DNA from: Octopus vulgaris
Lineage: Eukaryota
Length of the DNA stretch: 64,000 nucleotides
Direction: 5' to 3'
Assembly: GCA_951406725.2 (NCBI GenBank)
Contig: OX597820.1
Span: 114,080,001 to 114,144,000 of the forward strand
The notes below the pieces were generated by a model, which was not told where the DNA came from, did no database searches, and saw only the letters and a program-made list of their open reading frames with translations. Shown here in pieces: positions 1,252-48,165 of the stretch; positions within the stretch are counted from its first letter, which is position 1, and every line of letters begins with the position of its first letter. Made by a program: the position numbers and the translations under genes.

Positions 1252-1913
1252 AGTCATGGTATACATTATAAGTATTATTTTTACTTATTACAAGAAAGAG
1301 AGGCAGGTGCTGTGACTTCTGTTCTTCCCAGGTAGTAAGATTGATGTAGTTAATTTTTTGCCTTCATCCTTATATGAAGGTTGATGCCTGTAAAAGAAAA
1401 AGAGGATATTGCATAGAGCTACAATTCTGGTGGAAGTACTTAGTATGCGATCTAAGATCGAGGTACATTAGATTGATGAGAAGAAGTGCATTGGGTGAGC
1501 TTGGACAAAGGCGGTGCAAACAATGTTAATTGAGGAATTGAGGAACACAGAAGTTATAGAAATAGAAGAAAGAGACAGAGGAAAGATATAACATGTATAA
1601 AAATAGGTTTCTGGTTATAATTTCACTGTTAATATTCATGAGAAAGATTTTACTGAATGCCACAACATCCTATTTGATATTTTCTTGTGAATTTGAAGCT
1701 TTGCACCTATGTAAGAAATTAATATTTTATGTCACTAAATCCTTTGAGAAACACTTTGTCATATTCGTATTCAGTATATCCAAATCCTTGTGCCTGCATA
1801 ACAAATGAATTTAATTTTTCTTATTGTTTTTCTATGTTTTGTGAGGGTGAGCAGATCAATTTCCAAGATTCAGTCTACTTCAGGGAATAAATTGTAAGTA
1901 TCTATCGTCTAAG

Positions 1914-2376: not shown

Positions 2377-3612
2377 TTGGGTTGGCAAGAAAGTAATTTC
2401 AGTTTTTTAGTGTGAAATAAAAGTCTTTTGTTTGATAACCATTTACTATCTCTCTGGCAACTTCATGATTCCACACTCATAGAACTTCTGGTCCTTATCA
2501 ACCAAAAGCTGAAGCAAGTGTGATTTCAGGTCATCATCATTATTGAAAGTTTTACCACTCAAAGAATTTTGCAAACTTCGAAATAAATGGTAATCTGATG
2601 GTGCAAGGTCAGGGCTATTTGGTGGATGTGACATCACTTCCCAACTAAGCTCCAATACTTTTTCATGAGTTAGCAAAGACATGTATGGTCTAGTGTTATC
2701 ATGGTGGAACACGATTCCTTCATGATTTGCCAATTATGGCCATTTTTCTTTGATTGCTTCCTCCAGTTTCATTAGTTGTTGACAGTAAACACCTGAATTG
2801 ATTGTTTGGTTCCTTGGAAGCAGCTCAAAATACAAAATACCATTGTAATCCCACCAAATTGACAGCATGACCTTTTTTTCGGGCAGTTCAGCATTCGATG
2901 TGGTTTGTGCTGGTTCATTACGCTTGGACCATGATCGTTTTTGATTGAGGTTATTGTAGACAATCCATTTTTCATCACCAGTGATGATTCGTTTCAAAAA
3001 AAGGGTCAGTTTCATTGCCTTTGGGATGCAAATCTCAAATATTGATTCGTTGTGTTAAGTGAATCCTTTTCAATTTATGTAGAACCCAAATAACGGAGCT
3101 TCTTAACGAGTCCAAGACATTTTAAGTGATTCTCAATTGTTGTGTGTGATACATTTAACCTCTCTGCAATCTCTCGCACAGTTATACGACAATCATTCAA
3201 TAACGGCTTTGATTTGGTCATCATCAACTTCAATAGGTTGACCAGAACGTTGGTCATCTTTGAGGGAAAAATCTCCAGAATGGAATTTTTAAAGCCATTT
3301 CTGACAGGTGCATTCTGTCAAGCAACCAACACCATAAACTTCACATATCTCTTTGTGAGCTGTGGCAGCTTTCTTGCTTTTACAGAAATAAAAAAGTAAA
3401 ATATGGCCAAAATGTTTGTTTTTGCACTCCATGTTAAAATTGACACTGAACTGACAGCTGTAAACAAAATTACAGGTAATTTGCTTCTAAAGTAAGCTAA
3501 AAGTAACGGCTATCAAATGTCAAAAGGAAAAAATCATAACATTGACACAAGTCATTAAAAAAAAATGTAACTGTATTTGCGTAAAATGAAATAACTTTCT
3601 TGCCAATCCAGA
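2377..3612 (-). mobile_element. Degenerate mariner (DD34D) transposon
   Basis: TIRs ttgggttggcaagaaagtaatttc / gaaataactttcttgccaatcca; broken transposase with ITGDEKWI, HHDNTRP and SPDLAPSDYHLF motifs. Confidence 0.93.
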
Positions 3613-4448: not shown

Positions 4449-5714
4449 TATTCCTCACACTTTCCATTGAATTGTTGCCTTTGTTGATCTCATAAAGCAC
4501 TTTCTTTTTCTATTATAGAAGATCCCAGAGATTGAGCCAACAGACATCTTCACCTCCAAGATCTTCAAGACAACCAATGTAATTGAGATTTCTGTCACAT
4601 TCTTTTTGAAGTCATGGTGGTGGTGGTGTACATGGCATTTCTTGCAATGATTGTATTGAGGAAAATTGGTGTATCTGGCAGTACTAGTATTGATGGTAGA
4701 GGGAGATGATTGTGATGATACGAAGTGCATTACAGAAGTTTTAAGACTTTTTGAGGAGAGGCAGTTGTAACTGTCCTAGATTATTGTAATTTAAGTATCA
4801 TTATCCGAGCGTGATCGTTGCCAGAGCGGCTGTCTGGCCTCCGTTCCGGTGGCACGTAAAAGACACCATCACTCCAGTGCAAAATACAACAAATGAAAAA
4901 TTACTAGTGGTCAGGTGTTTCTGAGAAAATTCAGTAAAGACTCATAACCAATATATCACTTAACCAAACAACTCTTTAGTCCTCAATCTTTATCTATAGA
5001 ACTTCTTGCATCTAAGGACGATTCCTTTGTCTTAATGGATCGTGAGGATATCGTGAAACACTGTAATGAGCGCTTAACTGTTCATTCTGCCCCAAATGGA
5101 CCATTTCCCTACCAATAAAAAAAAAAAATGTTTTATATATATATAAGCACAAGCATGGCTGTGTGGTAAGAAATTTGCTTCTCAACCACATGGTTCAGGG
5201 TTCTCTCCTGCTGCAGAGTACCTTTGGAGAGTGTTTTCTGCTATACCATCAGGCCTTGTGAGTGGATTTGGTAGAGGGAAAATGAAAGAAGCCTGTCGTA
5301 TGTGTTTATTTTTGTTCCCCTCTGCTTGAAAAACATTTAAGTCCCCATAATTTAGCAGTTTGGCAAAAGAGACCAATAGAATAAATACCAGGCTTGAAAA
5401 GACAATAAGTACTGGAACTGACTAGTTTGACTAAAATTTCTCAAGGTAGTGCCCCAGCATGGCCACAGTCTAATGACTGAAACAAAATAAAAGATAAAAG
5501 ATATCACATGTGCATGTGTATGCATGGAAAGATGGGTGATAACACTATGATGGTCATGATATTGATAATTTTATTGTGCAATTAATAACCTCATCAACCA
5601 GCCAGTGATAGAGACAGGGTTAAACCCCTGTTGATCATTTCTGTCTTAGATATGTTTAACATTATTTTATTACAACTTTTGTACATAATTCATGATTGTT
5701 ATTGTTATTTTCAG

Positions 5715-5774
5715 AAATAGCGAAGTAACTCGTACTCCAAAAATGGACCCATCTCCAAGTCTACCAACCATGAT
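5715..5774 (+). CDS. Gene A exon 1 (NSEVTRTPKMDPSPSLPTM)
   Basis: ttattttcag|A...AT|gtaagt; 60 nt, phase 2-2. Confidence 0.65.
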
Positions 5775-10723: not shown

Positions 10724-13700
10724 TTAGTGATGCAAACTGGAAAAATAGAACTCAAAACATGAGTATGTACTCTCTTTTACTTGTTTCAGTCATTTGACTG
10801 CGGCCATGCTGGAGCACTGCCTTTAGTCGAGCAAATCGACCCCGGGACTTATTCTTTGTAAGCCCAGTACTTATTCTATTGGTCTCTTTTGCCGAACCAC
10901 TAAGTGACGGGGACGTAAACACACCAGCATCGGTTGTCAAGCAATGCTAGGGGGACAAACACAGACACACAAACACACACACACATACATATATATATAC
11001 ATATATACGACAGGCTTCTTTCAGTTTCCGTCTACCAAATCCACTCACAAGGCATTGGTCGGCCCGGGGCTATAGCAGAAGACACTTGCCCAAGATGCCA
11101 CGCAGTGGGACTGAACCCGGAACCCTGTGGTTGGTTAGCAAGCTACTTACCATGCAGCCACTCCTGCGCCTATATGTATATTTTTTATTAATATTTAGTA
11201 AAAGCAACAGAGTGACTCACCCCTTGGTTTCAAATTTTGGTATGGGGCCAACAGTTTTGGGAGAGGGCTTAGTCAATTACATCAACCCCTGTGCTGTCAA
11301 CCTCAAAAGGATGAAAGGCAAAATCAACTTCAGTGGAATCGAAACGCAGAATGTGCAGATGGATGAAATGCCATTACGCATTTTGCCTGGTCTGCTAATG
11401 ATTCTGCAACCCCGCCAACTTAAATCTGTAATGATGGTTTCAAATTTTAGCACAAGGCCAGCAATTTTGAGGGAGGAGTAAGTCAATTACATTAATCCCA
11501 GTGTTCAGTGGGTAACTTATCTTCATCATGTAAGGGTGCTTCTCTGCATATGTTCATTCTACTAGAAATAGCAGTTGAATCTCTCTCAAATCACATCCTA
11601 CCATCTTAAAAGGACACATCAGATAATGTGGTCCTGAATGTACTATGTCTGAATAAAAGATGAGGTGGTCAGCACTGATTTGAGACTAAACCACATCAAT
11701 AACCGTTTCCCTTCAGCCACTAGCTGTCTAAAGTTCCATCACAACTGTTGAAGTACATAAGCAGGTCCCTCCATATTTCCAGACCAGACTTCACTCATGG
11801 CATCACCACTATTGAAACTGTTTAGAAGCAGTGTATTAATGTTGTGGTATATTTTCTCTCTAGGAATGAACCCTTGACCCCTGCTGAAACACCACCCATT
11901 CATACAGCAGATGCAGACCTGCCATCGTTCCTGTAAGTAGAGCTGAATGAACTATGTTTTATTAACCAGCTAGGGTATTATTACAGTATACACGGTCAAG
12001 GCTGTATGTAGACATGATTGTCAAAGGTGTGTGCTTGCTTAAATACTTTTACAATAACAAATAATACTACTGTTTAACACATTTTTTGTCCTTGGGTAGC
12101 AGCTGTTATTTCCTATTTGCTTACCCTTAAAAATTATGAAAAATGGCTATTTTGATCAACTTTTGCATTTGTTATATTTATTCAGACCCCAAAGAATCCC
12201 TCAACGTATGGCTATGATGTTCCCTCATTACTCTTGCTTGTGATGCGCATATTATCAACCACTAAGGGACATGCTCAAGTGGTTAAGATCAAGCAAATCT
12301 GTTGTCCTAAGCAGAATATTTGCTTTAACAATGTTTCTACTTCAACAACTCAGCAGTGAATTTGTGTGAAATGTAATGGAAAACCCTTCAGTTTCAAAAC
12401 AAATGCAAAATTTGAAGGGAATAGTAGTTGTTTCTTTATATTTGTAGATAGAAACAAATAGGAAATAACACTTACTGACCAAAGATATAAAAAAAATTAA
12501 AATAAAAGATAAAACTTTGTTACACAGTGTAATCATTTGTGATCTGTTTGCAGAAAGAGATAGACGGAAGAAGTCGAAAAATTGCGTGCTTACTTCTCAG
12601 AGCTGTATGTAGATAGGGTGGCATAAAAGGCATATGCTGATGGTGGAAGATATTTGTGACATAGGAAGAGGGCACATAAAAAGCACCATCTGAACGTGGC
12701 CGTTGCCAGTGCCGCCCCGACTGGCTTCTGAGCCGGTGGCACATAAAAAGCACCATCCGAACGTGGCACATAAAAAGGTCCAACCGATCATGGCCGATGC
12801 TGGAGCCCCCTAGCACCTGTGCAGGTGGCACATAAAAAGCACCCACTACACTCGCGGAGTGGTTGGCATTAGGAAGGGCATCCAGCTGTAGAAACACTGC
12901 CAGATCAGACTGGAGCCTGGTGCAGCCCCTGGCTTCCCAGACCCTGGCTTCCCAGACCCTGGTCGAACCATCCAACCCGTGCTAGCGCGGAAAACGGACG
13001 TTAAACGATGATGATGATGATGAGGGAGAAATAATAAGGTTTTTTTCTCAGAATGTTGGATTTCACTGATGAGGTGATGGTACTAGACTTGGATGAGTGC
13101 TTATGTGACATATTTTAACATTTTCTTCTCATACTGTTTAACTCATAACAGTATAGAAGATGGATGTGGTAGCAAGAGGAGTGGTGATGGTAATGCCATT
13201 GCTGTTGACTTTCATGAATATTATTATTGTTTTTAGAGGTATTTGGTGTGATTGGGGTGGGGCAGGGTAGAGATGAAAATAACAGTGATGAGACAGCTGT
13301 AATGATATGCATAAGATCTGGTCATCAAATCTAAGTAGAGATTTCAAACATAAAATCTTCAAAGCCACAGTCAAACCAATTCTACTATATGGCTCAGAAA
13401 CCTGGACGTTACCAAAGAAGCCTGAGAGGCGGTTGGATGGAACTTACATTCGTCTCCTTATGAGAGCTCAAAATCTCTCGTGGAAGCGTCATCCAACCAA
13501 AGTACAAATATATGGGAAACTACCACCTGTATCATCTCTTGTGAAAGGTAGAAGAGTCCAGTTTGCTGGACATTGTTGTAGAGCTGAAAATGAGGTAATT
13601 TCTACTCTTCTCCTCTGGAAGCCATCTGCTCGCGATACCAGAGAGCGCACACTCTCCTACCCTGATGTAATCTCCAGGGATACAGGCATCCAGCAACAGG

Positions 13701-15692
13701 ACCTCCGTAATGCTATGATGGACTGTGAAGTCTGGCGTAACATAGTAAATTCCATTGTCTCAACCACGGTCAAACAATGATGATGATGATGATGATGATG
13801 ATGGGCCCCTCAGTGTATAGGGTGAGCAAAAATGAATGGAGCAGAAGAGCCAGGAATGTGTATGGGTCAATGTTGCAAGCATATATACGAAAGTAAGGTG
13901 TGAGGAATGGGGGAAGCAGTGAGTATGATGAATGAAGAACAAGTATTGAGTGGATGATGAGAAGAGAAGGTGGGGAAGTGTAGGTGACAACTGGAAGGGT
14001 TGAAGGGGTGGATAAATGATGGATGAGTGGATTCTGTCTCTAATTAAAATAAAGCTTGCATGGGAAAATGAAACACAAAAAGGTATCACCAGGTTTTTCT
14101 TAATCTTTTAATCCAGGAAGAAGGGCAATGCTCAAGGCCTGTGAGAGACAGAGGAAGGTATCCTCCAACCAGAAGCCTTGGTGGACTCGGCTAAAAGCAT
14201 CCAAGGTGCTGGGCAGCAGATTAAATCTTCTATTCAAGTGAAAAAAAAAAAGATAGGATAAAGATCCTTCCCAAGTCATATAGACTCATTGGGTCAGTTT
14301 CTGTGGTGTATGTTCCCCACTTGGACAGGGCACCAGTCTTTCGCAGGATTACTCATTTTTGTCAGCTGAATGAACTGGAGCAATGTGAAATGAAATATCA
14401 TTTGTTAAATAGCCAGAGCAAATATTGCAAGTTATCTTTCAAACATTTTAACAATACTGCCAGTTCGCTGCCATAATAATAATATTCATTTTAGACGCAG
14501 ATGTTCTGGGTTCATTCCTACTGTATGGCACATTGGGCAAGTGTCTTCTACTATAGACCTGGATTGACCAAAGCCTTGTGAGTGAATTTGTTAGTTGGAT
14601 ACTGAAAAAGGCCCATCACCTGTGTATGTGTTTTGTCTTGACATTGTGTCGTACAAGTGGTGTTGTTCATTTTTAATATTCTGTGGAAACCTGTTTGCCA
14701 TGGGGAAATATTACCTTGCTTAGAAACAGGTGAAAGTTGGCAACAAGAAGGGCATCAAGCTGTAGAAAATCTGCCTCAAATAAACTCTGTCTGACCCATG
14801 CATACATGGAAGCGGTCTTTAATTATTATTATTATTATTATTATTCTGTTCTATATTTTAGAGATGAAGAATTCTGTACATTATTTGCATTGGATGGATA
14901 TTTGTCCTTATCTGGTTTGTTGTTACCATAGCGTTTCAGCAGATTTACTCTCCAGCCTTCATCAGGTGTCCTAGTAGAATTCTGAACCCAACCCTGGGTT
15001 CTTGTTCCTAAGGTATTTTTTTGCTGATGTTATTATTTTTTCATTCAAGGTACTGTCTGGAATTGAATTGGAATCTTAGGGGTTAGTAGCCTGCACTCTT
15101 AACCATTACACTTGAATAAATAATAATAATAATAATAATAATAACATCAGCAAAAAAACATACCTTAGGAATGAGAACCCAGGGTTGGGTTCAGAATTCT
15201 ACCAGGACACCTGATGAAGGCTGGAGAGTAAATCAGCCGAAACATTGTGGTGACAACAAAGAAGATGAGGAAACATATCCATCCAATATAAATAATGATT
15301 ATTATTATTATTATTATTTGTACATAGTCATAAATACAAAAACGGTTTATAGACAATATGTAGTAACTTCTGTGGTTTTGGTCTACTTTCAGGAAGGACC
15401 AGGCCTACCCTATCAAATGTCCACCTTTCTGTAACAAATGCTGCACCAACAAACACAGCAAACTACTTTTAGCTCTTCTTAACTGTGATGACAGTACTGA
15501 CGACTTTAAGGAGTCAGTTTCTTTCAAGAATTTCCTGAACACTATTAATTATTATGAGGTTGGTATCATTTCTGAGGTATTCAATTTTGTCATACTCTTT
15601 TTCCTTCTGAATACCTCTGACTCTCTTTATCTCTCTCTGTCTGGCTGTCCATTTATGTATGTATGTATCTATCTCTGTCTGTCTCTCTCTCT

Positions 15693-15741
<49 letters not shown>

Positions 15742-18700
15742 GGCGGTGAGCTGGCAGAAACGTTAGCACGCCAGGCGAAATGCGTAGCCGTATTTCGTCT
15801 GTCGTTACGTTCCGAGTTCAAATTCTGCCGAGGTCGACTTTGCCTTTCATCCTTTCGGGGTCGATAAATTAAGTACCACTTACGCACTGGGGTCGATGTA
15901 ATCGACTTAATCCCTTTGTCTGTCCTTATTTGTCCCCTCTGTGTTTAGCCCCTTGTGGGCAGTAAAGAAATATATATATACATAGTGAAACCACATGGCT
16001 TAGTAGTCAGGGTGTTGCACGCAGGATTGTGAGATCATGGTTTCAATCCCCAGATCAGGTGTTGCGTTGTGTTCTTGAGTAAACTATTTCATTTCACATT
16101 GCTTTGCGATTATTTCGTCATCTGACATGTGGCACATTGTGCACCTGTACAGGCAATGTCCATTTGATGGAGAGAGTGAGTTTACGTGAACACAAACATT
16201 TGATCACTATAAACGAATCACATGTGGTTATTGAGTAAGAAATTACAGAACCTGCAGACATTATTCTCATTTTCTCACTCTCATGGTTTTAAGGTCAGAT
16301 TAATAAGCTTCATAATGATCCCACTAAACTGGAATCATCATGATTTAATGTCTGTTATCCATGCTGGGCATGGGTTGGATGGTTGACCTGAGCTGGCAAG
16401 CTGGAAGACTGCACCAGACTCCATTCTGATTTGACATGGTTTCTACGGCTGGATGCCCTTCCTAATGCCAACCACTCCAAGAGTGTAATGGGTGCTTTTA
16501 TGTGCCACTGGCACAGGTGCCATTTGCATGACACCAGTATCTGCCACAACTGTGATTTTACTTGGCTTGATGGGTTTTCTTCTGAAGCACAGCGTAATGC
16601 CAAAGATCTCGGTCATTGGACATTGCCTCCGTGAGGCCCACACTCGAAAGGTGCTTTTCATAAGCCACTGGCATCAGCCACCTTGTCTCCGTGGGGCCCA
16701 ATGTTTGAAAGATGCTTTTTACATGACATCAGCATTGGCCACGGCTGTGATTTCACTTGACTTCACAAGTCTTCTCAAGCACAGCGTATCACTAAAGGTC
16801 TCGGTCACAATCATCATTCTTTATTTAACAGATAGCCAATTGTCAAAATTATCAGTAAATTAATTACCTATTTATTAAACAATTGATTTTTTTTTTTTTT
16901 TCAGAAAAAGAACTGGAGGAGAAATTCAGCCATATTTGATGTGAATCCCGAATATCGATACCCTTTGATGCACTGGGCAGCAATTCTTAGTAAGTTTCAG
17001 TTTTGATCTTACTTCCAGTGTAGAGAATGCAAAGAGCAGTAGCTCTGCTAAAAGCTGTCATCCTTATTACTCTGTTGTTTAACCATTAAGCCTCTCAGCT
17101 AGCTTGCTGATTGTTGTAAGAGCATCAGATATGACCAGAAAAATTCAAAAGCCTGTCTGATTTTTTGAATTTCTAATTTGAGAGCTGATAAGTTCTTTGG
17201 AAATTTAATTGCAGCAATATAACTAACCTTATAGAGGTTACTTCATTAGTTTATTCTTTATTCATTAATCAAAATCCTTTGTATAATGATATTTGATTTT
17301 TTTTTAATAGGTAAATTAAACATTTTGAAGTGGTTGGCATCTGCAGGTTATAACATAAATGTTCTACACACCAACACAGGAGACACTGCCTTGCATCGAG
17401 TCTTGCTGTGTATCAGGGCAATACGTTTAAATAATCCTGTAATGGTGAAGAAATTTCCTCAGATTCTTGAAATTCTGGAACCGAATTTAAAAATTAAAAA
17501 CAGGGCAGGTTTAACACCATTCCTCACAAGCTGTGAGACCGTTGGCATGGATGGTCGAGCACATTACCGAAATGTTGATCTTCTTAGAGACATCTTGAAC
17601 TTTGCTAAAGAGCGCCCAGGTGAGTTCTATAAATACAATCCTACACAGTTTTGTTTGTGTGTGTGTTTGTGTGAACATACATGTGCATTTTTGTGTGTGT
17701 GTGTGTGTGCACTTGCAAGCAAACTTTTGGACATATGTTATTGCTCAAAACTTAATACATGTTAATGTAGTTATGGCTGTGTGGGCCTCTTAGACAAGTG
17801 TCTTCTACTATAGCTTCAGGCTAGACAAAGCTGTATGAGTAGATATGGTAGACAGAAACTGAAAGAAGCCCATTGTGTGTATATATGTGTGTGTTTGTAT
17901 GCATATATATGTATATATCATCATCATTTAACATCCATGTTCCATGCTGGCATGGATTGGATGGCTTGACAGGATTTGATACATGACTGTTTTGAGCACC
18001 AATTTCTGCTTTGGCATCGTATTTACACCTTGATGTCCTTCCTAATGCTAACTACTTTACAGCATGGACTATATACATGCATATGTATAAAAAGTACTCA
18101 TGCTGGTGTCACGTAAAAAGTACACAGTACGCTCTGTAGAGTGGTTGGCATTAAGAAGGGTATCCAGCCATAGAAACCATGCCAGAGCAGAGAATGGAGC
18201 CTGGTTTTCTAGCTCTGGTCAAACTGTCCAACCCATGCCAGCATGGAAAAACGGATGTTAAATGATGGTGATGATGATGACAAGAAGGACGACAATGATG
18301 CAGCAATGTCCCGTGTGTTGTTCTTTATTTTAGACAGTAGGGTGTGTTATAAGGATGGTTTGCCTGCTAGTTGTAGCAACTCAACGTACTATATAGAGGC
18401 TCCTTCGTTGTGTCGAGAGAAAGGGAGACAGAAACAATGAAAGAAAAGAAAGAAAGAGTGAATCATTTTATCTAATAAAAATCAAGTTTATACTATTTGT
18501 AACATACATACTTTGAAAATGTTAGCTGAAGTAAACTGTCTAGGGGTGTGGTTGGCATTAGGAAGGGCATCCAACTGTAGAAACTCTGCCTGATCAAGAT
18601 TGGAGCCTGGTGCAGCCATCTGGTTCGCCAGCCCTCAGTCATTCGTCCAACCCATGCTAGCATGGAAAGTGGACGTTAAATGATGATGATGATGATGATG

Positions 18701-21700
18701 CTGATTGATTTACTAAAATCACCTTGAACTATCTAGGGGTGTGGTTGGCATTAGGAAGGGCATTCAGCTGTAAACTATCTATCCATAAACTATCTAGGAG
18801 TGTGGTTCGTTAGGAAGGGCATCTAGCTGTAGAAACTCTGCCAGATCAAGATTGGAGCCTGGTACAGCCATCTGGTTCACCAGCCCTCAGTCATTCATCC
18901 AACCCATGCTAGCATGGAAAGCGGATGTTAAACGATGATGATGATGATTGATTTACTAAAATCACCGTGAAACTAAATCTTACAAAGCAACTGTTATGTT
19001 ATATTGCTGTAAGGATACGGCAGACAGCGTGACAGTCATTTATAAGCTTGTGTGACATGGTTGCTTGTATAATGTCCATGTTTTCATTAATTATTTTAGG
19101 TGCCTGTGTAGTCACAAGCAGACATAGATACTCTCTTGTCTCACCCCCCCCCCACTGCTTTAGCAGAGGAAGTGTGCTGCACAAGCATTTGGCTGGTACT
19201 CAATATCAGCTAAGTGGATAGGAGCATCGAGAAATAATGTACCTGGTTCAAGAGCAGAGCAAGCTGCTCAGATATTGAACGTAGATAGAGAAGCTGGAGA
19301 GAAATGAAGAAAGCATTATCCATTTTTGTGTACTATTATGTGAAAGGTGGACCATTATGTTGATGTTGTGCCCTGGAGAGACATGTAGAGTAATATGTGA
19401 ATGGCATGTGTGGATTATGTCTGTTGGGTGAGAAAATGCTATTTATTCATAATAGAAGAGAAATTAACTTACCAGGTTAGTGTTACTAGAGTAAAAGTGA
19501 CTAAACTAGGACTACTGGAGCCAAACTGACCAGACTGAGGGTGATGATGATGATGATGATGATGGTAATGATAGTGGTGAGGATGAAGATGATGATGATG
19601 ATAGTGGTGAGGATGATGATGATGATGATAGTGATGATGATTTGTTTCTCTATTACATCTACAGGATTACTGAATATTTTGTTCAATCAGCAGACAAAAC
19701 ATGGGCAGAGTGCTCTCCATTTGATTGCTCTGAATGATAAGGCATTAGGGGCAATGAAAATGTTGGTGGCTGCTGGAGCTAACGTGCAGTGTTTAAACAA
19801 AGAGGTAAGCAACACCTTTCCCCCCTCCCCTCTATTGCTTCTTCTCCACTATCTTCCCCAGTACACACTTCTCACCACCACCATTTTTCTCTGTTTTATT
19901 TCTCTTTTGGTTTTGTTGAATGTCAGATAGGAGGAGGTTAAGGTCGAGCGAGGTCGTTGCCAGTACCGCCTGAGTGGCACGTAAAAGTCACCCACTACAC
20001 TCTCGGAGTGGTTGGCGTTAGGAAGGGCATCCAGCTGTAGAAACTCTGTCAGATCAGACTGGGCCTGGTGCAGCCTTCTGGCTTCCCAGACCCCAGTTGA
20101 ACCATCCAACCCATGCTAACATGGAAAGCGGATGTTAAACGACGACAACGATGATGAGGGACAGTGGATGCCTAGTGACCACTTTCTTCATCTCACTTTA
20201 CCCCTTTCATTGTTATTTTTGTCACTGTTTCCTCCCCCTTTCTCTGTCAGTCTTCTCGCTCTGCTCATCTCCATTTGTCTTTGCTAATAAAGAAATCTGT
20301 AGTTGCATAACAGTGTCAAGGCTACGTTTGGCTCAACGATAAGTGAGAACTGTTCAGGCATATCTGGGTATTCTGCTTTATTCTTAACTAAGACACGTAA
20401 CCTATTAGCTCAGTCCACTTAGCTGTAAGTAGGTATCATGTGAAGGTACGGTCTGCTACTAGTGGCAGCAGAAACAGCAGTGGCACTGTCGTTGACCAGT
20501 GGTTCATTAACTTAAAGTGCTTCAGTGAGATCCTGTTCTGCTAATTTGAGATTTACCACCAGCAGTGTTGTACTGTTCAGACTCACATCACAACTTGCTC
20601 CCTGGGTGTTTTTAGTAGAGTCCAGTCTGTTGCAAACACGCAGGCTAGGTTTCCAGTCCAAGACAACTTACTCCCTTCCTCCCGTCATTCATGTAGGCTC
20701 CAAAAAAGGGATCATTGGCAATGGTGCTTCTCTTCTGATCTCTGACCTACTGAATATAATATATCACCAATGATAGTGTACTACAACAGAATATAATTTT
20801 GCCTTTTATTCACTTGACTTTTTTTCAAAACGATACGGCATGGTTCAAGGATATTCTTCTGACAAGACAGGATGGGACAGGATGGAATGCATTGGTTGTT
20901 GATCCACCTTATCACAGCTGATCTGAGGTTTAACAGAAACAAAGAAGTATCTATGCAGTCAATTGGCATGATAGAAACAACAATCAAATCACACCATATC
21001 ATTCTGAAATGTCAATTAATTAAAAAATAGTTTTATACATTCTGTTATAATATATTACCACTGTTAAGGTAGCAAGCTGGCAGAAATGTTAGCACACCGG
21101 GCGAAATGCGTAGCCATATTTCGTATGCCGTTACATTCTGAGTTCAAATACCGCCGAGGTCGACTTTGCCTTTCATCCTTTTGGGGTCGATAAATTAAGT
21201 ACTAGTTACGCACTGGGGTCGATGTAATCAACTTAATCCGTTTGTCCTTTCTGTGTGTAGCCCCTTGTGGGTAATAAAGAAATAGGTATTTTGTCTGTCT
21301 TTACATTCTGAGGTCAACTTTGCCTTTCATCCTTTTGGGGTCGATAAATTAAGTACCAGTTGCGTACTGGGGTTAATCTAGTTGACTAGCCCCTCCCCAA
21401 AAATTTTGGGCCTTGTGCCTAGAGTAGATAAGAATATATTACCAATGTTAGTATACTACCATTGGTAGTAGTGTTGTATTAGTAGTAGTAGTATACCACC
21501 ACTGGTTGTATTTTACCATTGATTATATATCACTAATAATATTATATTTATTAGAGTGTGAGGTTTGTGTGGCTTAGTGGTTAGGGGTATTTAGTTCATG
21601 ATTGTAAGGTCATGAGTTCAGTTCCTGGGAGTGCACTGTGTCCTTGAGCAAGACGATTATTTCATGTTGCTCCAGTCCACTCAGCTGGCAAAAATGAGTT

Positions 21701-24700
21701 GTATTTGTGATTCAAAGGGCTAACCTTATCACATTCTGTATCATGCTGAATCTCTCTGAGATCTACGTTAAGGGTACATGTGTCTGTGGAATACTCAGCC
21801 ACTTGCACATTAATTTCATGAGCAGGCTGTTCCATTAATCGGATCAACTGGAGCCCTTGTTGAAACCAACAAAGTGCCAGTTATAATTATTTGAGGATTA
21901 TCTCACCAGTAGTAATATTCTACCACGTACCACCAGTGGTAATATACTATGTTACTTTTAGTATTATATTTATTAGTAGTATTATTCCACCAATGATAAT
22001 GTAAAAAACTGATGCTAGTGATTTAAGTTTTTGGGTCAGTTTTGATCTCCATTTGTTGTTTTGAACTAATCATGCATTATCTTGTAGCTATGAGATTTTG
22101 ATGAGGTAGCTGTTTATTTTTAAAACGATATTGTAGGGTTGGTGTGAGAGACCAGATCTGGCCAGTTTAAACATAAAACACGTAGAATACTTTTGGCCGG
22201 ATATGGCTGGTTTAAATGCTAAAGGGTTAATGATACTCCTGGGAATTGAACATAGTCTTCACTTGCTTCTTGTTCCCAGTTATGTAACATTAAATATCTA
22301 AGTCAGTTACCCAAATAGATACAATGTTGAACAACTGCTCATATACTGGGTTCAAATCTGCTGAAGGATTTCATTGTGATTCTGTTCAAAACACTTCATC
22401 TCCTGACTATTTCAGTATATCCTGCTACAGACATTGTAGCATCATCACAGTAAACCATTGTGTTGCACTCAAGAGGGGTTCAGCTAGATATATCATTTAT
22501 GTTGTACATATACGATTTTTTTTCTCATATATGTCATACATTTGTGATTCATTTTTTTGTGGAAACTTCCATTTCTTTCCATGTATCACTCATGTTTGTT
22601 TTTAATTTCTTTTGCTTAAATCTAGGGTCAAACCCCTTTCTCACTAGCGGTTAACCTTGGTCAATTACGAGTGGCTCAGTACTTAGAAAAACATTCTTTG
22701 AATATCACTCCTCCATGTATAGACACTCCATTATCGAGCGCACCCTCATCAAGAGCCTCCTCTTCTAACTCTCCATCTGAGAGCAACGGAGACCACTTAC
22801 TTCCACATGAAGCAACAGATGTTGGCCCCAGTGCAGTCAGTTCAACAAGTAATGCTGCCAGTGATGCCAGCACCCCACCTTTTTCAAAGAGAATCAAAGT
22901 GGAAGGCTCTCTGGTGAGTGTTTGTTTTCATTTTATTCTATTTCATTTCTTTTTTCTTTTTATTTATGTATTTAATCAGCACCAAGGGTGTCAGTTTAAG
23001 GTGCTACACAAATCTTATTACCACTGATATACTGAATTCCACTTCCTACAGGTGAGTGATTAGGGGTTGCTACAACCAATAAAGCCTCTAACTCAGCCAA
23101 GTAAGAAGAAATTGATGTGAAACAATAAACAAAACAAATCGATGGGATTGACAGAATCGTTTGATTATTGACGAAATAATTTGTGGGAGTCATTTGTGTA
23201 TCATACTGTTGTATATATACCATTGAAAAGCAGGCTGCTGGGGTTTTTGTCTGAGAGTAGATCTCTTCATTGATATATTGGAGCAAGAACGTTATTGCAG
23301 CAGTGACTCACAACAATGTCAGATGCATTTTGACATTTTGGGCCTTTTCAATAACATGTACTTATTTGTCACATGCTTAAATGAAGTTTGTGCTTTGGTT
23401 TGTAGGAAACAGTGAATAATATTACTGAGATGTACTTGCATAGCAAGTGACTTGATCTGAGATTGTGTGCTGGAATGAAAACAATTGCAGCGTGGAAGGT
23501 GTTTGTAAGCCATTTAAGAAACACACAAAAACCGTTAGATTCACTTCAACATTTAAATTTAATTTGTGTCAAAATATTTTCATTGCTTTGGGACTGCGAC
23601 CTGTTCACTGACAAAACTTTGTGGTGCAGCATGAAGTTTTGTCAGTGAACAGGTCGCAATTTCAGAACGCCGAGAATATTTCGACAAATTAAATTTAAAT
23701 GTTGAAGTGAATCTAACGGTTTTTGTGTGTTTCTTAAATGGCTTACAAACACCTTCCAGTGAATAATATGTTCACTGATATTGTGGAATGCTTGTCAAAC
23801 TGTAAAAAACGAAGTAAATGCAATTGAAGCTACATTAAATTAAAATAGACATCTGTGTATCGTACAGGCAGCTTTGGTTTTTTTGTCTGGTAGAAAACCT
23901 CTTCATAATGGTAATTTGAATCCCTCTTTTCCTATTGCACACTCCAATCATCTTCATGAATCATATGAGAGTATGCAACTTTTACTTCATGCCATTGACT
24001 ATGAAAGATACTCATGGAAAATATGTGGAGATTTAAAAGTCATTGAAATGTTAATGAGAATGCAGTCAGGTTCCACAAAATACTGTTGTTTTTTGTGTGT
24101 ATGGAATAATCAGGCAACTGACAGACATTATTTGGAATCAAACTGGCAGACAAGAACAGCATACCAGCCAGAGCTGTCTATCATCAAGAATACACCTCTT
24201 GTAGATCCATGTAATGTCCTATTGCTTCCTTTGTGCATAAAGATTGGACAAAACAGTTTGTAAAGTTACTAGGCTTGAGTAGAAAAGTTTCCCCAAATCA
24301 CACAGGCATAATTGAAAGTGGGTATCTTTGTTGGACCCCAAATTAGAGAAGTACTCAAAGATGTCAACTTCAAGACAACAATGGATGAACTGGAACTGCC
24401 TGCCTGGAATGCTTTTGGATCTGTGAGAAGGCTAACAAGAAGGCAATGGACTCCAAGGATGGCTTCAAGAATCTTCTGAAATGTTACTAAGAAATGGGTT
24501 GTCGCATGTCACTGAAAGTTTACTTCTTGGACCCCCATCTGGATTTCTTCGTAGATAACCTTGGAGCAGTGTCTGATGAACATGGTGAAAGATTTCACCG
24601 GGACATTAGTGCTGTGGAGAAATGGTGCCAAGGCTTCTGGAATGACAGAATGCTCGCCGACTACTGCTGGACACTTTACCGTGATCAACCAGATCAGGAA

Positions 24701-30700: not shown

Positions 30701-33700
30701 GAAGGTTTTTCCTAATGTATATGTAGAAATATAAACAAAATAAACAAAATATATGCATGAGACTTTGCTATACGGAATGAAATCTGCATAGCGCAAAACA
30801 AATCCATCGTCGTGTTTACATACTAGTCCAAGAGTCAAAATCAAAATTTCAAAAATCAAAAATACAAAATATATACACTATCCATATGGTATATTTATAT
30901 TTGACATTTTAAATTTGGTTGCGTGTCTACGTAAGTTCATTAGCTCACTTCTTTGATTCAAAGAATTATTGTCTTTGAATAAAATGTATAGTTTTTCTAA
31001 TAGGCAAAGCTTGCATTTAAAATTATTTCTGTGTGCTCCATGCCTGTATGGTGCCGCTCTGTCCAGAATGCTCCATGTCACGTTGAAAGGTGGGGTTTCC
31101 TTTTCTTTTAGTTCCCAGACATATTTTGCTAGGCTGGTCCTCTTCCTATTCTCTGGGTATCTAAATGAATTTTTATGTGAATAAAATCGTGTTTTAAATG
31201 AATTTTCTGAAGCCCCTGTATATGTCTTGTATTCCGATGAGCCTTCTATTTGCACCTTGGCTCTATAAACTACTCCTTTCACTAGACATTTCCCTTCTAA
31301 CGGACAGGAGCTTTCGTTTTTGAAATTGCATTTCTTAATGGGGTCGGCACCATGTCTAATCTCAATATATATATATATATACACATACACACACACACAT
31401 ACATACATACATACATACACACACACACATTGTTACGCCGTCGCTCAACTCAACTTAGGACCCTAAGTCGGCGATGACGACTACGCTCAGTCAAACGGAA
31501 ATCCACCACAGAAAGCGGGGGTGGGCAGTGAACGCAAACCAGTAACCAGAGACAACAGCAACAAAGGAGAGAGACAGCAGAGGCAGTTGCTTACATTTAA
31601 CAACAATTTATATAATTCACAACATCAATTGAAACATTTCAAATACATTTAAAAACAAGGTTAACAGACATTTAACAGACCGTACACAGAGTTGAAAACA
31701 ATCAAAACAATCAATGTCATTTAGCAGAATACAACGTCCGGCAACACCGGGTCATAATGCTAATGTATGCATATACAGCTGTGTGCGGGCACACATACAC
31801 GTGAGTTCTGTCCAAATCTCCAACCAATCACATACAGCTAGCTGGCATTCAATTGGCGTATCAAGTTTCGGGCATTTTGATTGAGTTTTGGATAGAAAAT
31901 TCACAAAAAAGTCACTTCTATTGATTTTTTAATGGCTTTGCGGGGTGACTGGGGAAATGTAACGATGTGCATGAACTCCCTTGGACAGTTTTGAATGACC
32001 ATAGAAAGTGCGATCCCTCTAACTGAAAAATTGTGGATTTGTATAAAGGACTCACACACAGACATTTTGCCGTTTATATATAGAGAGATTTTGTTTATTG
32101 CATGCTTAAGACCATAAGTTGAAAGGACCAATGAAGCAGAACCATTTTCAAATATGTATCCATTAAACTAATTGTGTATGTTTGCTTATAACCTTATTTC
32201 TGTTCCATTTTAAACAAAACTGTCCAACAAACAGGAACAGGAAACTCTGAGTAACAGTTTTTGTGATATTTTTGCTGCTTTTCAATAAAGTATATGTATG
32301 CATACATCTATGTGTTTGTCTCCCCCATCACCGCTTGACAACCAGTGTTGGTGTGTTTACATCCCTGCAACTTAGCAGCTCGGCAAAAGCAACTGATAAA
32401 ATAAGTAGTAGGCTTAATAGATAAGTCTGGGATCAATCCATTGCTCCAGCATGGCCACAGTCAAATGACTGAAATAAGTGAAAGAATAAAAGAACAATTA
32501 TGTCATTGAAATTTTGATGCTACAACATGATAAATGTCAAAATGTAAAGAAATAAACTTTATATTTGCTGGAGTAATCATCATCATCGTTTAACGTCCGT
32601 TCTCCATGCTAGCATGGGTTGGACTCTGAATGCTAATGGGTTGATTACTGAAAACTTTACATGGTCTACTCGAGTAAAGTCTTGGAATTAGCTTTAGAAG
32701 ATTTTAAAGTTTTTCTATGTTTATTTTTGATGACTTTTTACTATGTTTTTTTAAACCTTCTTTCTTATTTTACCAGGTATTCTTCATCAGGAGACTATCC
32801 ATCTAAAGTTAAACATGTATTTAGAAAATGTGAGTATCCATAAATATGAAATATTTAAAACCCTTTCATTACCATATTTCTGTTGAAAGTCACTGCTTTT
32901 GTTTCAGTTACTTTTTAAAAGACTGGGGAACTTAGTAAAATAACTTTTGTCACTGTTCAAGGTAGTTTCTAAAACATAATGTGGAACTTTGATGGAAGAT
33001 TTTTATTTAACCCTTGTGTTATCAAACTGCTGTTGAAATAGACTCTCTTTGTTTCGGTTAGTTTTGAAACCAATGAAGAATTTAGTAAAATAACTTTGAA
33101 GTGGTTGGTGTTGGGGAGAGCATCCAACTATAGAAACCATGTCAAGGTAGACCTTAGAACTATGCCAGCACGGAATGCAAACGTCAAATGGCAATGATTC
33201 ATCATCATCATCATTGCTTAACATCCGTTTTCCATGCTAGCATGGGTTGGACAGTTCGACCGGGGTCCAGGAAGCCAGGAGGCTGCACCAGGCTCCAGTC
33301 TGATCTGGCAGTGTTTCTACAGCTGGATGCCCTTCCTAACGCCAACCACTCCGTGAGTGTAGTGGGAGCTTTTTATGTGCCAGGCGAGGCTGGCAACGGC
33401 CCCGATCAGTTAGTGCTTTTTACGTGCCACCGGCATGGAAGCCAGTCAAGGTGGTGCTGGCATTGGCCACATACGGATGGTACTTTTTAGGTGCCAGGGT
33501 AGGCTGGCAATGGCCACAAACGTTTGGTGCTTTTTACGTGCCACCGGCACAGAAGCCAGTCATGGCGGCGCTGGCATAAGATCAAAATTTCCTCAAATTT
33601 TGGCTCAAGGACTGTAATTTCATTGGAGGTGGTAAGTTGATTACATGAATCCCAGTTCTTGACCAGTGCATATTTTTTCAACCGAAAAGAATCATAAGCA

Positions 33701-36700
33701 AAGTCAACTTCAGGAGTATTTGAACTCAAAATGTAAAGACAGAGGAAACGTTGTTAAACACTCTGCCTGATATGCTAATAATTCAACCAGCTCACCACCA
33801 AGAGACTCTCACTCTTTGTGTCTAGTAGGAATATTTCATTGTCTACTGTCTACTGTCAAGTCTACATCTGCCAGAATACTCTCTCATCGCTCTAACACTC
33901 TTTTCATTCTTCTCTCCCTCCCATTGTGTCATATGACTAAAGATGGCAGTGGATTTCTCCTCCTCATTGTAACTAAGGATGTCACTGGACCTATCTAACC
34001 CTCTCATCTCTTCAACACAACCCCTGCCTCTCTCATCCTCATCAACCTCTATATTTCACTCATCATGAGGCTTATAGATAAAGGATCACATCAGATGTGC
34101 ATGGCACCCTATCCAACTCTACCATTACCTTTTCTATCTTCCTTTCCTTGGACACTTGTTATTGACATTTACTCTTAGCATTTATCCACCTCACCTTTAC
34201 CCACTGACTTTAATTCCTCTTTGTTGACTTCAACTTCTGTGTCTGAAAGATTCTGGGATAGCTGGTCTACTATCCCATTGTTCATGCTGTCAGCCACCTA
34301 GAAAACCCCAGAATAGTTGAACTATGTATGTTACTATCCATCTCTCTCTCTCTCCCCCTTTACCACTATCCTGACCCCATTACTCTGTTTTTACCATCAC
34401 ACCCTTACTCCTTTCATCCACTTATCCTGATTCTTTCATCTTCCTTTCTTTTATTCACTGCCTCGGCCATGTAGCCCTACATGTAGCCCTACAAAAACAT
34501 GTATAGAGTGATGAGGGCTATTAAGATAGAAAGCAACTTCACTAATTGGTGCCAAAAAATAAAAGTGTTGCTAAGTGAGTGTAAAGTGGTTGGTAACTGA
34601 GTGGAAACATGGGGAGAGGTTGAGAGGACCCTTTAGGCTTGTTGATACCTGATAATCTGTCAAGTATTGGTGTTGTGATAAAATGCACCCAGTCCACTCT
34701 GTAAAGGGATTGGTGTTGGGATGGGCATCCAACCTTAGGAAACCAAACTGTAAATTAAATGTAATAACAAGGTGTAGTCCCCAACCCATCTAGGAGGGCA
34801 GTAATTCTGAATATAAACTGGTTTGGACCGTGATGACCTGGTCAACTCTTACGAGCATTCTACAGCAAAATTATGATTCAATTTTTTTAAATTAAAAATA
34901 TATTTTTTTCATTTTATCAATTTTGTCAATTCACTTTAAGGTTCTAACAACACTTCTGACGGAATTTTGAAGCAATATTTCCACATCTGCAATGACAGTG
35001 CTCGAGAAAACCTTATTGCCAGTATCAACATGGACAAAAACAAGTGTTTGCAAGATCTGAAGGTCACAGAAGAAAGATTGGCAGGTTCGTGAAAAAACAG
35101 AGATTCCCTTCTTTTATCTCATCGTTTATATAGATTGGTGGTGGTCTTGGTCTTATGTTATAATTCCATTCACATCTAATATGATTTATAGGAATATTAA
35201 ATTGATCTAAGTACTTGGCTGGTACTTTATTTTAGTTCAGTCCTCTCTGCCTCGCTCAGGCAATGCATATAGGCTAAAGGGTCAAATACTTGTGATTCTG
35301 AGATACCTGCTGATAACATTGAAGGGTTTCCAACTTTGTGGTGGATTTAGAAGAGCCTGCAAAATCTGAGTAGCTCCTGCAGTTTCAGCATGGGACAAAG
35401 TATCTCTGGTATTTATTTCACCTTATATGGAACCCAAAAGCACGAGAGGCACAGGGGTTCTCAGTAGGATTTGAATTCAGAATGTGAGAGGCCATCACTA
35501 AATATCACAGGCATTTTGTCTTACGATTCTGCTAATCCACCATCTTGATTGTCATGGTTGGTGGTGGTGACGTAGGGGTGGCAGGGGCAAGGGTGTCATG
35601 GTTGGTGGTGGTGACATAGGGGTGGCAGGGGCAAGGGTGTTCATGCTCAGTCAGCCCTAATTCTGCTGATCTGTCTTCTTCTTGTCTTGAGACAGCATTC
35701 ACCCGGGGTGGGTTGTGCTGGCTTCATTCATCTTCAATGCTGCATCTCTCACAAACGCCGACCAGACCTGGCGATTTGAGGCTCCAACCACTCTTTATTC
35801 CAGTGGCAAACGCCGTAGATATGGGGTCCTAGGTTGGGTTCCAGACCAGCCTTGACTGTCATCAGCCAGGTTTTACGTTGTCCACCACATCACTTTCACC
35901 AGCCCTGAAAGGGAGCTGGGGCAATTGCTTCGTAGATCTGTGATCAAATATGTCCTTCCTTTTATTAAAATCGTAAACTTATAATCTTTTCTACAATAGG
36001 TGCAAGGCCTGAGATATTGGAGGAAGTTACTAATTGATTACATTGGCCTCTAGTACTCATCTGGAACTTATTTTATCAACCCCAATGAGATGGAAGGCAA
36101 GGTCAACCTTGGTGGGATTTGAACTCACAATGTGGTCACTAATCATTCTGTCTAGTATGCTAATAATTCACAATGATGATAATAATTCTTTATAATTTTG
36201 GCAGAAGGCCAACAATTTTGAAGGGAAGGGAAAATCAATAACATTGACCCCAGTTTTTGTCTGGTACTTATTTTATTGACCCTGAAATTATGAAAGACAA
36301 AGTCGACCTTGGCAGCATTTGAACTTAGATTGTAATGCTAAAAGAAATGCCACTCAGCATTCTGACCCAAGATAACAATTCTGCTAGCTTGCCCTGTCTT
36401 GATAATAATAATGATTATGATGATGATGATGATGATGATCATCATCATCATCATCATTTAGCGTCCGCTTTCCATGCTAACATGGGTTGGACGGTTCAAC
36501 TGGGGTCTGGGAAGCCAGGAAGCTGCATCAGGCCCAGTCTGATCTGGCAGTGTTTCTACGGCTGGATGCCCTTCCTAACACCAACCACTCCGTGAGTGTA
36601 GTGGGTGCTTTTTACGTGCCACCTGCACAGGTGCCAGATGGAGCTGGCAATGGCCACGATCGGATGGTGCTTTTTACGTGCCACCGGCACGGGGGCCAGG

Positions 36701-48010: not shown

Positions 48011-48129
48011 TATATACCCACTCGTATACCACCTACACTTATTATAAATAAATATATATATATATATATATATATCGAAAAAAAAAAGTCAAGATAGAAA
48101 ATGCTAAAATGATTTTATAAGAAACATTT

Positions 48130-48165
48130 CAGTACCAGTTTCAGTCATTGAGACTTTTTCAACTG
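48130..48165 (-). ncRNA. Hammerhead motif with U3-A8 core (UUGAAAA), separate family
   Basis: cag-TTGAAAA-AGTC(tcaat)GACT-GAAA-CTGG-TA-ctg. Confidence 0.55.

What the first reader, a model, noticed from the sequence alone, without database searches (positions are those of the whole stretch)
16905..22690. An intron-rich animal gene with a fungal Cdc10/Swi6/Mbp1-type ankyrin domain
Seen: spliced exons 4-7 read YPLMHWAAILSKLNILKWLASAGYNINVLHTNTGDTALHRVLLCIRAIRLNNPVMVKKFPQILEILEPNLKIKNRAGLTPFLTSCETVGMDGRAHYRNVDLLRDILNFAKERPGLLNILFNQQTKHGQSALHLIALNDKALGAMKMLVAAGANVQCLNKEGQTPFSL. Recalled, needs confirming: the irregular middle repeats match fungal SBF/MBF subunits rather than generic ankyrins. These are HWAA in repeat 1, an Arg after TALH/TPLM in repeat 2, an insertion ending in an FPxLLxLL helix (Mbp1/Res2-like), RAGxT…CxTxG..GR…LLNWAKK (Cdc10-like) and LLNxQxxxGxTALH…LVxxGA…NKEG. 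Established: SBF/MBF are regarded as fungal G1/S regulators, and animals use E2F/Rb. Inference: a domesticated metazoan relative of the Swi6/Cdc10 ankyrin plus coiled-coil scaffold, either an ancient opisthokont retention or an old horizontal/viral acquisition. No APSES/KilA-N domain is visible in this window.
Basis: partly seen in the sequence, partly recalled or inferred. Interest (0 to 1): 0.85.

Follow-up and report, generated by a model that had tools for sequence, protein, structure and literature searches.

The report
Invertebrate cousin of yeast Swi6 ankyrins
This spliced octopus gene belongs to an unnamed protein family of cnidarians and other invertebrates whose irregular ankyrin domain is likely related by descent to that of the yeast cell-cycle regulators Swi6/Cdc10/Mbp1; it lacks their DNA-binding domain and likely acts as a dimeric nuclear adaptor, which would mean that part of a 'fungus-only' regulator has an animal relative.

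Summary
The four exons splice as read (two junctions seen in 4 of 4 public runs) and belong to a 14-exon, 721-aa Octopus gene (NCBI name 'SWI4-like'). It is one member of an unnamed family: 88 deep-search hits; all 15 named ones are animals (cnidarians, molluscs, brachiopod, annelid, priapulid, hemichordate, echinoderm). The layout is: invariant C/H-x3-C-x3-C-x3-H site (likely zinc), five irregular ankyrin repeats, a disordered linker enriched in NLS and SUMO motifs, and a coiled coil predicted to dimerise. No KilA-N domain (0 of 76).

The Swi6/Cdc10/Mbp1 link survives most tests: reciprocal HMMs, repeat-by-repeat register, two shared insertions, and Swi6 (1SW6) ranked 2 of 997 by structure (201 residues, 2.9 A). 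Against it: whole-domain HH-align and Z scores tie with generic ankyrins, and the tree cannot settle the origin. I put common descent of the ankyrin domain at about 0.75. It is not an SBF/MBF subunit, and no cell-cycle role is shown. Best reading: a likely nuclear, dimeric adaptor that kept the ancestral opisthokont ankyrin scaffold onto which fungi later added the viral KilA-N domain.

The parts
1846..1893 (+). coding exon 2 (aa ~164-179), basic disordered N-terminus; some isoforms start 9 nt further in; exon 1 (aa 1-164) lies about 2.0-2.5 kb upstream of the window
4519..4578 (+). coding exon 3, disordered
5715..5774 (+). coding exon 4, disordered
11864..11932 (+). coding exon 5, absent from isoform records P0006 and P0008 (alternative exon)
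15393..15558 (+). coding exon 6 (aa 244-298): Cys/His site and helical cap of the ankyrin domain
15418..15456 (+). C252-x3-C256-x3-C260-x3-H264, predicted zinc site; the first ligand is Cys or His across the family
   Evidence: C256 65/65, C260 65/66, H264 66/68; position 252: C 46, H 15, L 2
16905..16989 (+). coding exon 7: conserved Asp310 and first helix of ankyrin repeat 1 (HWAA)
17311..17619 (+). coding exon 8: end of repeat 1, repeats 2 and 3 with the two insertions shared in register with fungal SBF/MBF subunits
19665..19804 (+). coding exon 9: ankyrin repeat 4
22626..22913 (+). coding exon 10: repeat 5 and start of the disordered linker
22887..22904 (+). KRIKVE (aa 564-569): overlapping NLS-like and SUMO-consensus motif; the KRIKxE form is kept in P0001, P0003, P0010, P0011 and P0002
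27566..27606 (+). coding exon 11, linker
32777..32829 (+). coding exon 12, linker
34941..35084 (+). coding exon 13: conserved short helix and start of the coiled coil
37089..37300 (+). coding exon 14: coiled coil and stop codon; predicted antiparallel homodimer

Best explanation
The gene encodes a 721-aa member of an unnamed invertebrate family whose five-repeat ankyrin domain likely descends from the same ancestor as the ankyrin domain of fungal Swi6/Cdc10/Mbp1/Res, and which likely works as a dimeric nuclear adaptor that has no KilA-N DNA-binding domain. Shown: gene structure, splicing, family membership, domain layout, and no KilA-N match. Predicted: a zinc site (C252/C256/C260/H264) caps the N-terminal end of the ankyrin stack, and the C-terminal coiled coil forms a homodimer. 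Inferred: import through the PxxK[KR]x[KR] motif, SUMO control through IKxE, and binding of a DNA-bound or chromatin partner through the ankyrin groove, so that the dimer bridges two such partners, as Swi6/Cdc10 or GABP-beta do (their roles are recalled). Inferred history: the scaffold was present in the last common ancestor of animals and fungi; fungi fused a viral KilA-N domain to it, and animals added the zinc cap.
For: (1) Family profile against non-family ankyrin proteins, best single stretch: the fungal KilA-N protein P0222 scores 62.6 bits, against max 49.9, mean 26.3, sd 7.3 for 118 others. (2) Reciprocal: an HMM of 66 fungal domains puts animal members at 35 of the top 40 of 194 proteins, with median span 165 vs 53 columns; P0001 scores 55.9 bits. 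The fungal set is validated by 1SW6 at 178.7 bits in one stretch and by KilA-N-like matches in 71 of 80 loci. (3) Repeats 1-4 each match best the same-numbered fungal repeat. (4) The two inserted segments match in register (HH probability 56 and 79) but not swapped, reversed (3 or less) or against generic repeat halves (about 1). (5) Repeat spacing: P0001 34/43/50/34, fungal median 33/37/51/33, 0 of 55 generic windows. (6) Fungal domains score higher on the animal HMM than on a generic five-repeat HMM in 66 of 66 cases; animal domains prefer the fungal HMM in 61 of 76. (7) A model with pLDDT above 90 over most of the domain aligns to 1SW6_A at Z 16.2, 201 residues, 2.9 A, rank 2 of 997; every other listed row with 194 or more aligned residues has rmsd 3.9 A or more. 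(8) In 67 family tails, [IV]KxE occurs 58 times vs 19.6 +- 4.3 in shuffles, and P-x(0-3)-K[KR]x[KR] 39 times vs 7.1 +- 2.7. (9) Homodimer of aa 603-721: score 0.63 vs best control 0.17, runs agree in 95% or more of contacts, pLDDT 85 or more; in eukaryote calibration 17 of 29 homodimers and 0 of 30 monomers reached the mark.
Against: Whole-domain HH-align does not discriminate: animal-fungal 201, animal-generic 199, fungal-generic 219 (generic profile from 13 proteins only). Single-sequence HH-align gives fungal mean 117 (n=33, max 128) but generic max 141 (mean 97, n=118). Repeat cores 3-5 match a generic repeat as well as or better than the fungal repeat, and repeat 5 fails the register test. 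Z scores are tied within about 1 with generic ankyrins, and Foldseek's listed top rows hold no Swi6. No fungal protein was recognised among the best 150 of 226 hits of the 4-sequence cephalopod profile (49 scanned by Pfam), and that profile missed 1SW6 at E up to 10. The N-terminal cap and the C-terminal tail show no sequence homology to fungal ones. The fungal set was fished with a pattern that fixes W and R, so their invariance in fungi is by design. Only 1 of 7 eukaryote homodimers without an older solved relative passed the dimer mark, so that pass may reflect generic coiled-coil likeness. No partner, localisation or phenotype was measured, and no unicellular holozoan member was seen.
Confidence: 0.55

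Rival explanations
1. An ordinary, animal-born ankyrin family whose two insertions and W/R residues converged on the Swi6 pattern; the 'SWI4-like' name is a best-hit artefact.
For: Whole-domain HH-align, single-sequence HH-align, Foldseek and VIA Z do not separate Swi6 from generic ankyrins. Automatic names in the family are erratic: mucin-like, PPP1R12A-like, adhesin-like. Cap and tail are not shared.
Against: Reciprocal HMM preference; in-register match of both insertions against three kinds of control; W then R in adjacent repeats in 51 of 76 animal members vs 1 of 218 generic repeat pairs; best length-to-rmsd combination with 1SW6.
Confidence: 0.22
2. The domain is homologous but reached animals by an old horizontal transfer from a fungus, or through a virus, before the cnidarian-bilaterian split, losing KilA-N on the way.
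For: No member from sponges or unicellular relatives of animals was seen among the 15 named hits. A tree with animals held together with the Cdc10-like subfamily is not rejected (p-AU 0.43).
Against: In the free tree animals (SH-aLRT 95) and fungi (96) each form one side of a branch, so the animal set is not nested in the sampled fungi. No viral relative: 0 of 8 pattern matches confirmed, and the 11 viral loci found with the fungal alignment all score far higher on the generic ankyrin HMM.
Confidence: 0.15
3. It is a working SBF/MBF-like G1/S regulator in invertebrates: a Swi6/Cdc10-type co-activator that pairs with an unknown DNA-binding subunit.
For: Swi6-like ankyrin domain followed by a coiled coil; NLS and SUMO motifs; four [ST]Px[KR] motifs in the N-terminal 200 residues of P0001; a neighbouring gene shares the C-terminal domain and could be a heterodimer partner.
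Against: No KilA-N match in the own genome (the search works exon by exon) or in 76 members. Full CDK motifs are not clearly enriched in family tails (44 vs 32.6 +- 5.2, shuffle max 50). The fungal C-terminal association region is not matched.
Confidence: 0.08

Closest known systems
Fungal SBF/MBF subunits (S. cerevisiae Swi6, Swi4, Mbp1; S. pombe Cdc10, Res1/2; PDB 1SW6)
   Same: Five-repeat ankyrin domain with insertions after the first helix of repeats 2 and 3, HW in repeat 1, Arg after the repeat-2 motif; ordered domains joined by disordered linkers and a C-terminal coiled region (PMC5448814, passages, for Mbp1/Swi4; for P0001).
   Different: No KilA-N/APSES domain; an N-terminal Cys/His site absent from 80 of 80 fungal loci; the coiled coil is not detectably homologous to the fungal tails; about 20% identity to 1SW6.
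GABP-beta (animal ankyrin plus leucine-zipper transcription cofactor; recalled, not tested as a family)
   Same: Works-like analogue: N-terminal ankyrin repeats, disordered linker, C-terminal coiled coil that dimerises, no DNA-binding domain of its own.
   Different: GABP-beta has regular repeats and no zinc site (recalled); no native GABP-beta structure stands in the listed fold-search rows, which does not exclude it.
IkB/Bcl-3, Notch and other nuclear ankyrin adaptors
   Same: Same fold, Z 15-16.
   Different: They align with rmsd 3.9-4.8 A over about 200 residues, against 2.9 A for Swi6; different flanking domains (recalled).

Membership tests
SBF/MBF (Swi4/Swi6/Mbp1/Cdc10/Res) | N-terminal KilA-N/APSES DNA-binding domain (or its degenerate form) | tested here: not met
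   No Pfam KilA-N in P0001-3 at E up to 1 or in 49 of 88 hits scanned; own fungal KilA-N HMM 0 of 76, best 4.3 bits, control P0222 150 bits; aa 1-228 modelled as disordered. The degenerate Swi6-type N-domain was covered only by the Pfam scan.
SBF/MBF (Swi4/Swi6/Mbp1/Cdc10/Res) | Swi6-type irregular ankyrin domain, by sequence | tested here: met
   Reciprocal HMM, register and insertion tests; whole-domain HH-align was not discriminating.
SBF/MBF (Swi4/Swi6/Mbp1/Cdc10/Res) | Swi6-type ankyrin domain, by structure | tested here: inconclusive
   1SW6 rank 2 of 997 (Z 16.2, 2.9 A, 201 aligned) and rank 7 of 48,161 (Z 15.4, 3.5 A, 198 aligned), tied in Z with generic ankyrins.
SBF/MBF (Swi4/Swi6/Mbp1/Cdc10/Res) | C-terminal heterodimerisation region homologous to the fungal one | tested here: not met
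   HH probability 1.8 (Cdc10-like, 10 tails) and 6.0 (Res-like, 39 tails) vs reversed controls 0.5 and 19.9. A coiled coil is present but is analogous at best.
SBF/MBF (Swi4/Swi6/Mbp1/Cdc10/Res) | Drives G1/S transcription from SCB/MCB elements | not testable with these tools
   Needs experiments.
Ankyrin repeat superfamily | Helix-turn-helix 33-aa repeats | tested here: met
   Pfam Ank_2, Ank_4, Ank and Ank_3 above cut-off; fold searches.
Zinc-binding CCCH/HCCH site | Four conserved ligands in tetrahedral geometry binding Zn | tested here: inconclusive
   Ligand conservation and C-to-H exchange at the first position; pLDDT about 90 there. Geometry and metal binding were not examined.
GABP-beta | Regular 4.5-repeat ankyrin domain that binds the ETS factor GABP-alpha | not tested
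   Recalled analogue only; no direct comparison was run.

The most novel reading that the evidence does not exclude
Cnidarians and many invertebrates keep a descendant of the pre-fungal ancestor of Swi6/Cdc10: a zinc-capped, dimeric nuclear cofactor that still acts in proliferation control, perhaps on E2F/DP targets. SBF would then be a chimera of a viral KilA-N domain and a host cofactor that already sat in the ancestral G1/S network, which would explain how the viral domain was wired into cell-cycle control.
Probability: 0.12. Interest if true: 0.9.

Novelty: new variant of a known kind. Interest (0 to 1): 0.64.

Why it matters
Medina et al. 2016 (PMC4862756; abstract and passages read) found no eukaryotic SBF homologue outside fungi apart from virus-related cases, and traced the KilA-N DNA-binding domain to viruses. 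The word 'ankyrin' does not occur in their main text, so the origin of the ankyrin half is left open there. An animal family carrying that ankyrin domain without KilA-N would supply the missing host half and date it to the opisthokont ancestor. It also defines an uncharacterised, likely nuclear family with a new putative zinc-capped ankyrin module. It is present in Nematostella, where it can be knocked out.

Tried and rejected
Word-index searches with exon 8 or aa 245-505 found only five cephalopod-type proteins plus generic ankyrins. PDB sequence searches with whole repeats are swamped by DARPins and long arrays. The ESM Atlas gave only generic ankyrin clusters for aa 245-505 and nothing above 0.84 for the Cys/His cap of P0047. 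The first AlphaFold model (5 sequences) was poor around repeat 1, and its fold searches did not list 1SW6. Foldseek on the good model did not list 1SW6 in its shown rows; the viral library gave generic ankyrins only. One search returned stale output from a script bug and was discarded; one search is the redo. The four 'subsamples' were the same 13 rows and count once. The AU test for animals with Res-like proteins did not finish. No scan of prokaryote genomes was obtained, so bacterial relatives are untested beyond. No listed holder is on record as RNA. A minus-strand match to repeat 1 about 8.6 kb beyond the window (8 bits, E 0.6) was rejected as chance. No ankyrin exon of the neighbouring gene was found in 414 kb or by own-genome searches. 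Literature: searches found no paper on this family; subscription papers and supplements were not covered. PMC9118731 (passages) compares Notch and Swi6 ankyrins only as generic structural homologues. PMC231255 and PMC88810 were not held. Two look-ups of earlier findings were empty.
Full report
Observation. The four exons have AG/GT ends at 16905-16989, 17311-17619, 19665-19804 and 22626-22913. Exon 17311-17619 is 100% identical to P0001, named 'SWI4-like isoform X2 [Octopus vulgaris]'; its cluster also holds O. sinensis LOC115214145 records. P0001 (721 aa) maps to 13 exons in the window and to one exon about 2.0-2.5 kb upstream. In 4 of 4 runs laid, from 4 studies, a contig joins 16989 to 17311 across a GT..AG intron and runs on from 17620 into the exon at 19666. 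The gene is real and spliced.

The family. A profile of four cephalopod-type sequences (aa 245-440, which leaves out the two regular repeats) was run on 1.84 billion representatives: 226 hits at E up to 0.001, best 150 listed. Of the 149 new ones, 88 had a single stretch of 30 bits or more. I looked up 20 of the 88; 13 are named, all animals: Actinia (2), Nematostella, Lingula, Mizuhopecten ('regulatory protein SWI4-like'), Solemya, Pinctada, Mytilus, Potamilus, Capitella, Priapulus, Ptychodera, Anneissia. Pecten and Argopecten were named. No vertebrate, insect, nematode, sponge or unicellular name appeared, but absence was not tested. The working alignment has 76 rows: 5 cephalopod-type plus 71 of the 88, with 17 short fragments dropped.

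Anatomy. Family consensus begins [C/H]xP[FY]Cx3Cx3HH: C256 65/65, C260 65/66, H264 66/68, and the first position is C 46 times and H 15 times. That exchange suggests metal ligation (inference). A helical cap, Asp310 (73/75) and five ankyrin repeats follow. AlphaFold with 65 sequences gives pLDDT of 86-98 in most 10-residue blocks of aa 241-500 (one loop at 66) and 80-96 over aa 611-710, and under 50 for nearly all of aa 1-228 and much of 509-605. The long basic N-terminus is mostly cephalopod-specific (occupancy about 0.1). In 67 family tails, SUMO-type [IV]KxE occurs 58 times against 19.6 +- 4.3 in local shuffles (max 31), and NLS-type P-x(0-3)-K[KR]x[KR] 39 times against 7.1 +- 2.7 (max 20); full CDK motifs are not clearly enriched. 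Two copies of aa 603-721 fold as an antiparallel coiled coil: score 0.63, best control 0.17, runs agreeing in 95% or more of contacts, pLDDT 85 or more. The mark was reached by 17 of 29 eukaryote homodimers and 0 of 30 monomers, but by only 1 of 7 without an older solved relative. No KilA-N domain was found: Pfam on P0001-3 and on 49 of the 88, own HMM on 76, own genome.

Is the ankyrin domain Swi6-like? A deeper profile hit a fungal KilA-N protein named 'transcriptional regulator swi6' (P0222, E 3e-8) and 1SW6 as one 150-column stretch (E 3e-5, rank 25 by summed score). A pattern scan found 118 metagenome stretches, of which 80 were held; 71 of 80 carry a KilA-N-like match, 66 were kept after removing short and duplicate domains, and a profile of 22 hits 1SW6 at 178.7 bits. 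In favour: P0222 is the best single-domain match of the animal HMM among 119 non-family ankyrin proteins (62.6 vs max 49.9). The fungal HMM ranks animal members at 35 of the top 40 of 194 (means 37.6 vs 27.3). Repeats 1-4 match their fungal counterparts best (48, 34, 31, 50), repeat 5 does not. Spacing is 34/43/50/34 in P0001 (one search prints 35 for the first gap from an anchor one residue off) and 33/37/51/33 in fungi, while 0 of 55 generic windows show it. The two inserted segments match only in register (probability 56 and 79, against 3 or less when reversed or swapped and about 1 against generic repeat halves). Fungal domains prefer the animal HMM to a generic one in 66 of 66 cases, animal domains prefer the fungal HMM in 61 of 76. 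By structure 1SW6_A ranks 2 of 997 (Z 16.2, 201 residues, 2.9 A) and is the only listed row with 194 or more aligned residues under 3.9 A.

Against. Whole-domain HH-align gives probability 99.8 for animal vs fungal, but the same for animal vs generic (201 vs 199), so that number is not evidence of a special link. Single-sequence HH-align lets generic arrays reach 141 while fungal domains reach 128. Repeat cores 3-5 match a generic repeat as well or better. Z scores tie within about 1. The cap and the tail show no fungal homology. The generic controls were themselves picked by searches with family profiles, which makes them harsh in one direction, but they are not a survey of all irregular ankyrin families (TRPV channels, for one, were not compared directly). 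The fungal set is pattern-selected and looks Dikarya-heavy. The signal sits in repeats 1-2 and the two insertions. I put common descent at about 0.75.

Origin. In a quick LG+G4 tree of 75 rows (30 animal, 29 fungal, 16 generic windows; 184 columns) animals (SH-aLRT 95) and fungi (96) each form one side of a branch, and the fungi split into Cdc10/Swi6-like (95) and Res/Mbp1-like (99) groups (subfamily labels are my recalled reading of the motifs). Holding animals and fungi together is not rejected (p-AU 0.77), but nor is holding animals with the Cdc10-like group (0.43). The outgroup windows are not truly homologous, so the root is unreliable. Viral contigs gave no relative of the animal family (0 of 8 matches confirmed) and only generic ankyrins for the fungal one (11 loci). 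Presence in cnidarians, protostomes and deuterostomes dates the family to before their split. Inheritance from the opisthokont ancestor is the simplest reading, but it is not shown.

Mechanism. Shown: gene, splicing, layout, no KilA-N. Predicted: zinc cap and coiled-coil dimer. Inferred: a nuclear, SUMO-regulated, dimeric adaptor whose ankyrin groove binds a DNA-bound or chromatin partner. It works like Swi6/Cdc10 or GABP-beta (recalled roles) but is not a member of SBF/MBF, since the DNA-binding domain and the fungal C-terminal region were tested and not met. Nothing here shows a cell-cycle role.

Prior knowledge. NCBI's automatic names already say 'SWI4-like' for Octopus and scallop, so the best-hit resemblance is on record, but other members carry unrelated automatic names. 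Medina et al. 2016 (PMC4862756; abstract and passages) report no eukaryotic SBF homologue outside fungi except virus-related cases; the passages read rest on the DNA-binding domain, and 'ankyrin' does not occur in the main text. Hendler et al. 2017 (PMC5448814; passages; first author recalled) describe the DBD-ankyrin-C-terminal layout. Eight full-text searches found no description of this family; supplements were not read and subscription papers are not held.

Verdict. Real gene, undescribed family, likely but not proven special kinship with the fungal SBF/MBF ankyrin domain. New variant of a known kind; interest 0.64.

Noticed in passing
window 53854-53994 and 51517-51767, minus strand: Last two exons of a neighbouring gene, tail to tail with this one, that match the family C-terminal HMM (E 0.035 and 1.3e-9 among 9,220 ORFs) and share the phase-1 intron at the same position. 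Likely a paralogue and a possible heterodimer partner; no ankyrin or zinc exon for it was found in 414 kb.
   Followed up: partly
window about 59225-59332 and 63005-63420, minus strand: Two further open, exon-like stretches (35 aa and about 137 aa, low complexity) that probably belong to the same neighbouring gene.
   Followed up: partly
proteins P0051, P0087: The Capitella member has two tandem ankyrin domains and the Nematostella member (1,885 aa) three matching stretches, so the domain can be duplicated within a protein.
   Followed up: no
proteins P0046, P0074 and many unnamed ENA/Logan hits: Actinia has at least two divergent members, and the tree shows several subgroups, which suggests expansion in cnidarians.
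   Followed up: no
proteins P0053, P0190, P0097, P0140, P0169: Short single-exon gene calls from other records lose similarity at the positions of the Octopus introns before and within repeat 1, hinting at conserved intron positions; their taxa are unknown.
   Followed up: no
protein P0222: The fungal record carries about 380 extra N-terminal residues with a DUF2834 match, probably a fused gene model.
   Followed up: no
window 2446-3317 and 25302-25931 (minus), 23844-24733 (plus), 13292-13780, 26506-26907, 30878-31432, 46396-49688: Intronic and intergenic transposon remnants, by recalled resemblance: mariner-type transposase pieces, another DNA-transposon piece, and LINE/Penelope-type reverse transcriptase and GIY-YIG tails (ORFs); not checked with a tool.
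   Followed up: no
window 54540-54680 and 54930-55360: A stretch of a few hundred bases appears in inverted orientation nearby (seen), probably a local inverted duplication of a repeat.
   Followed up: no
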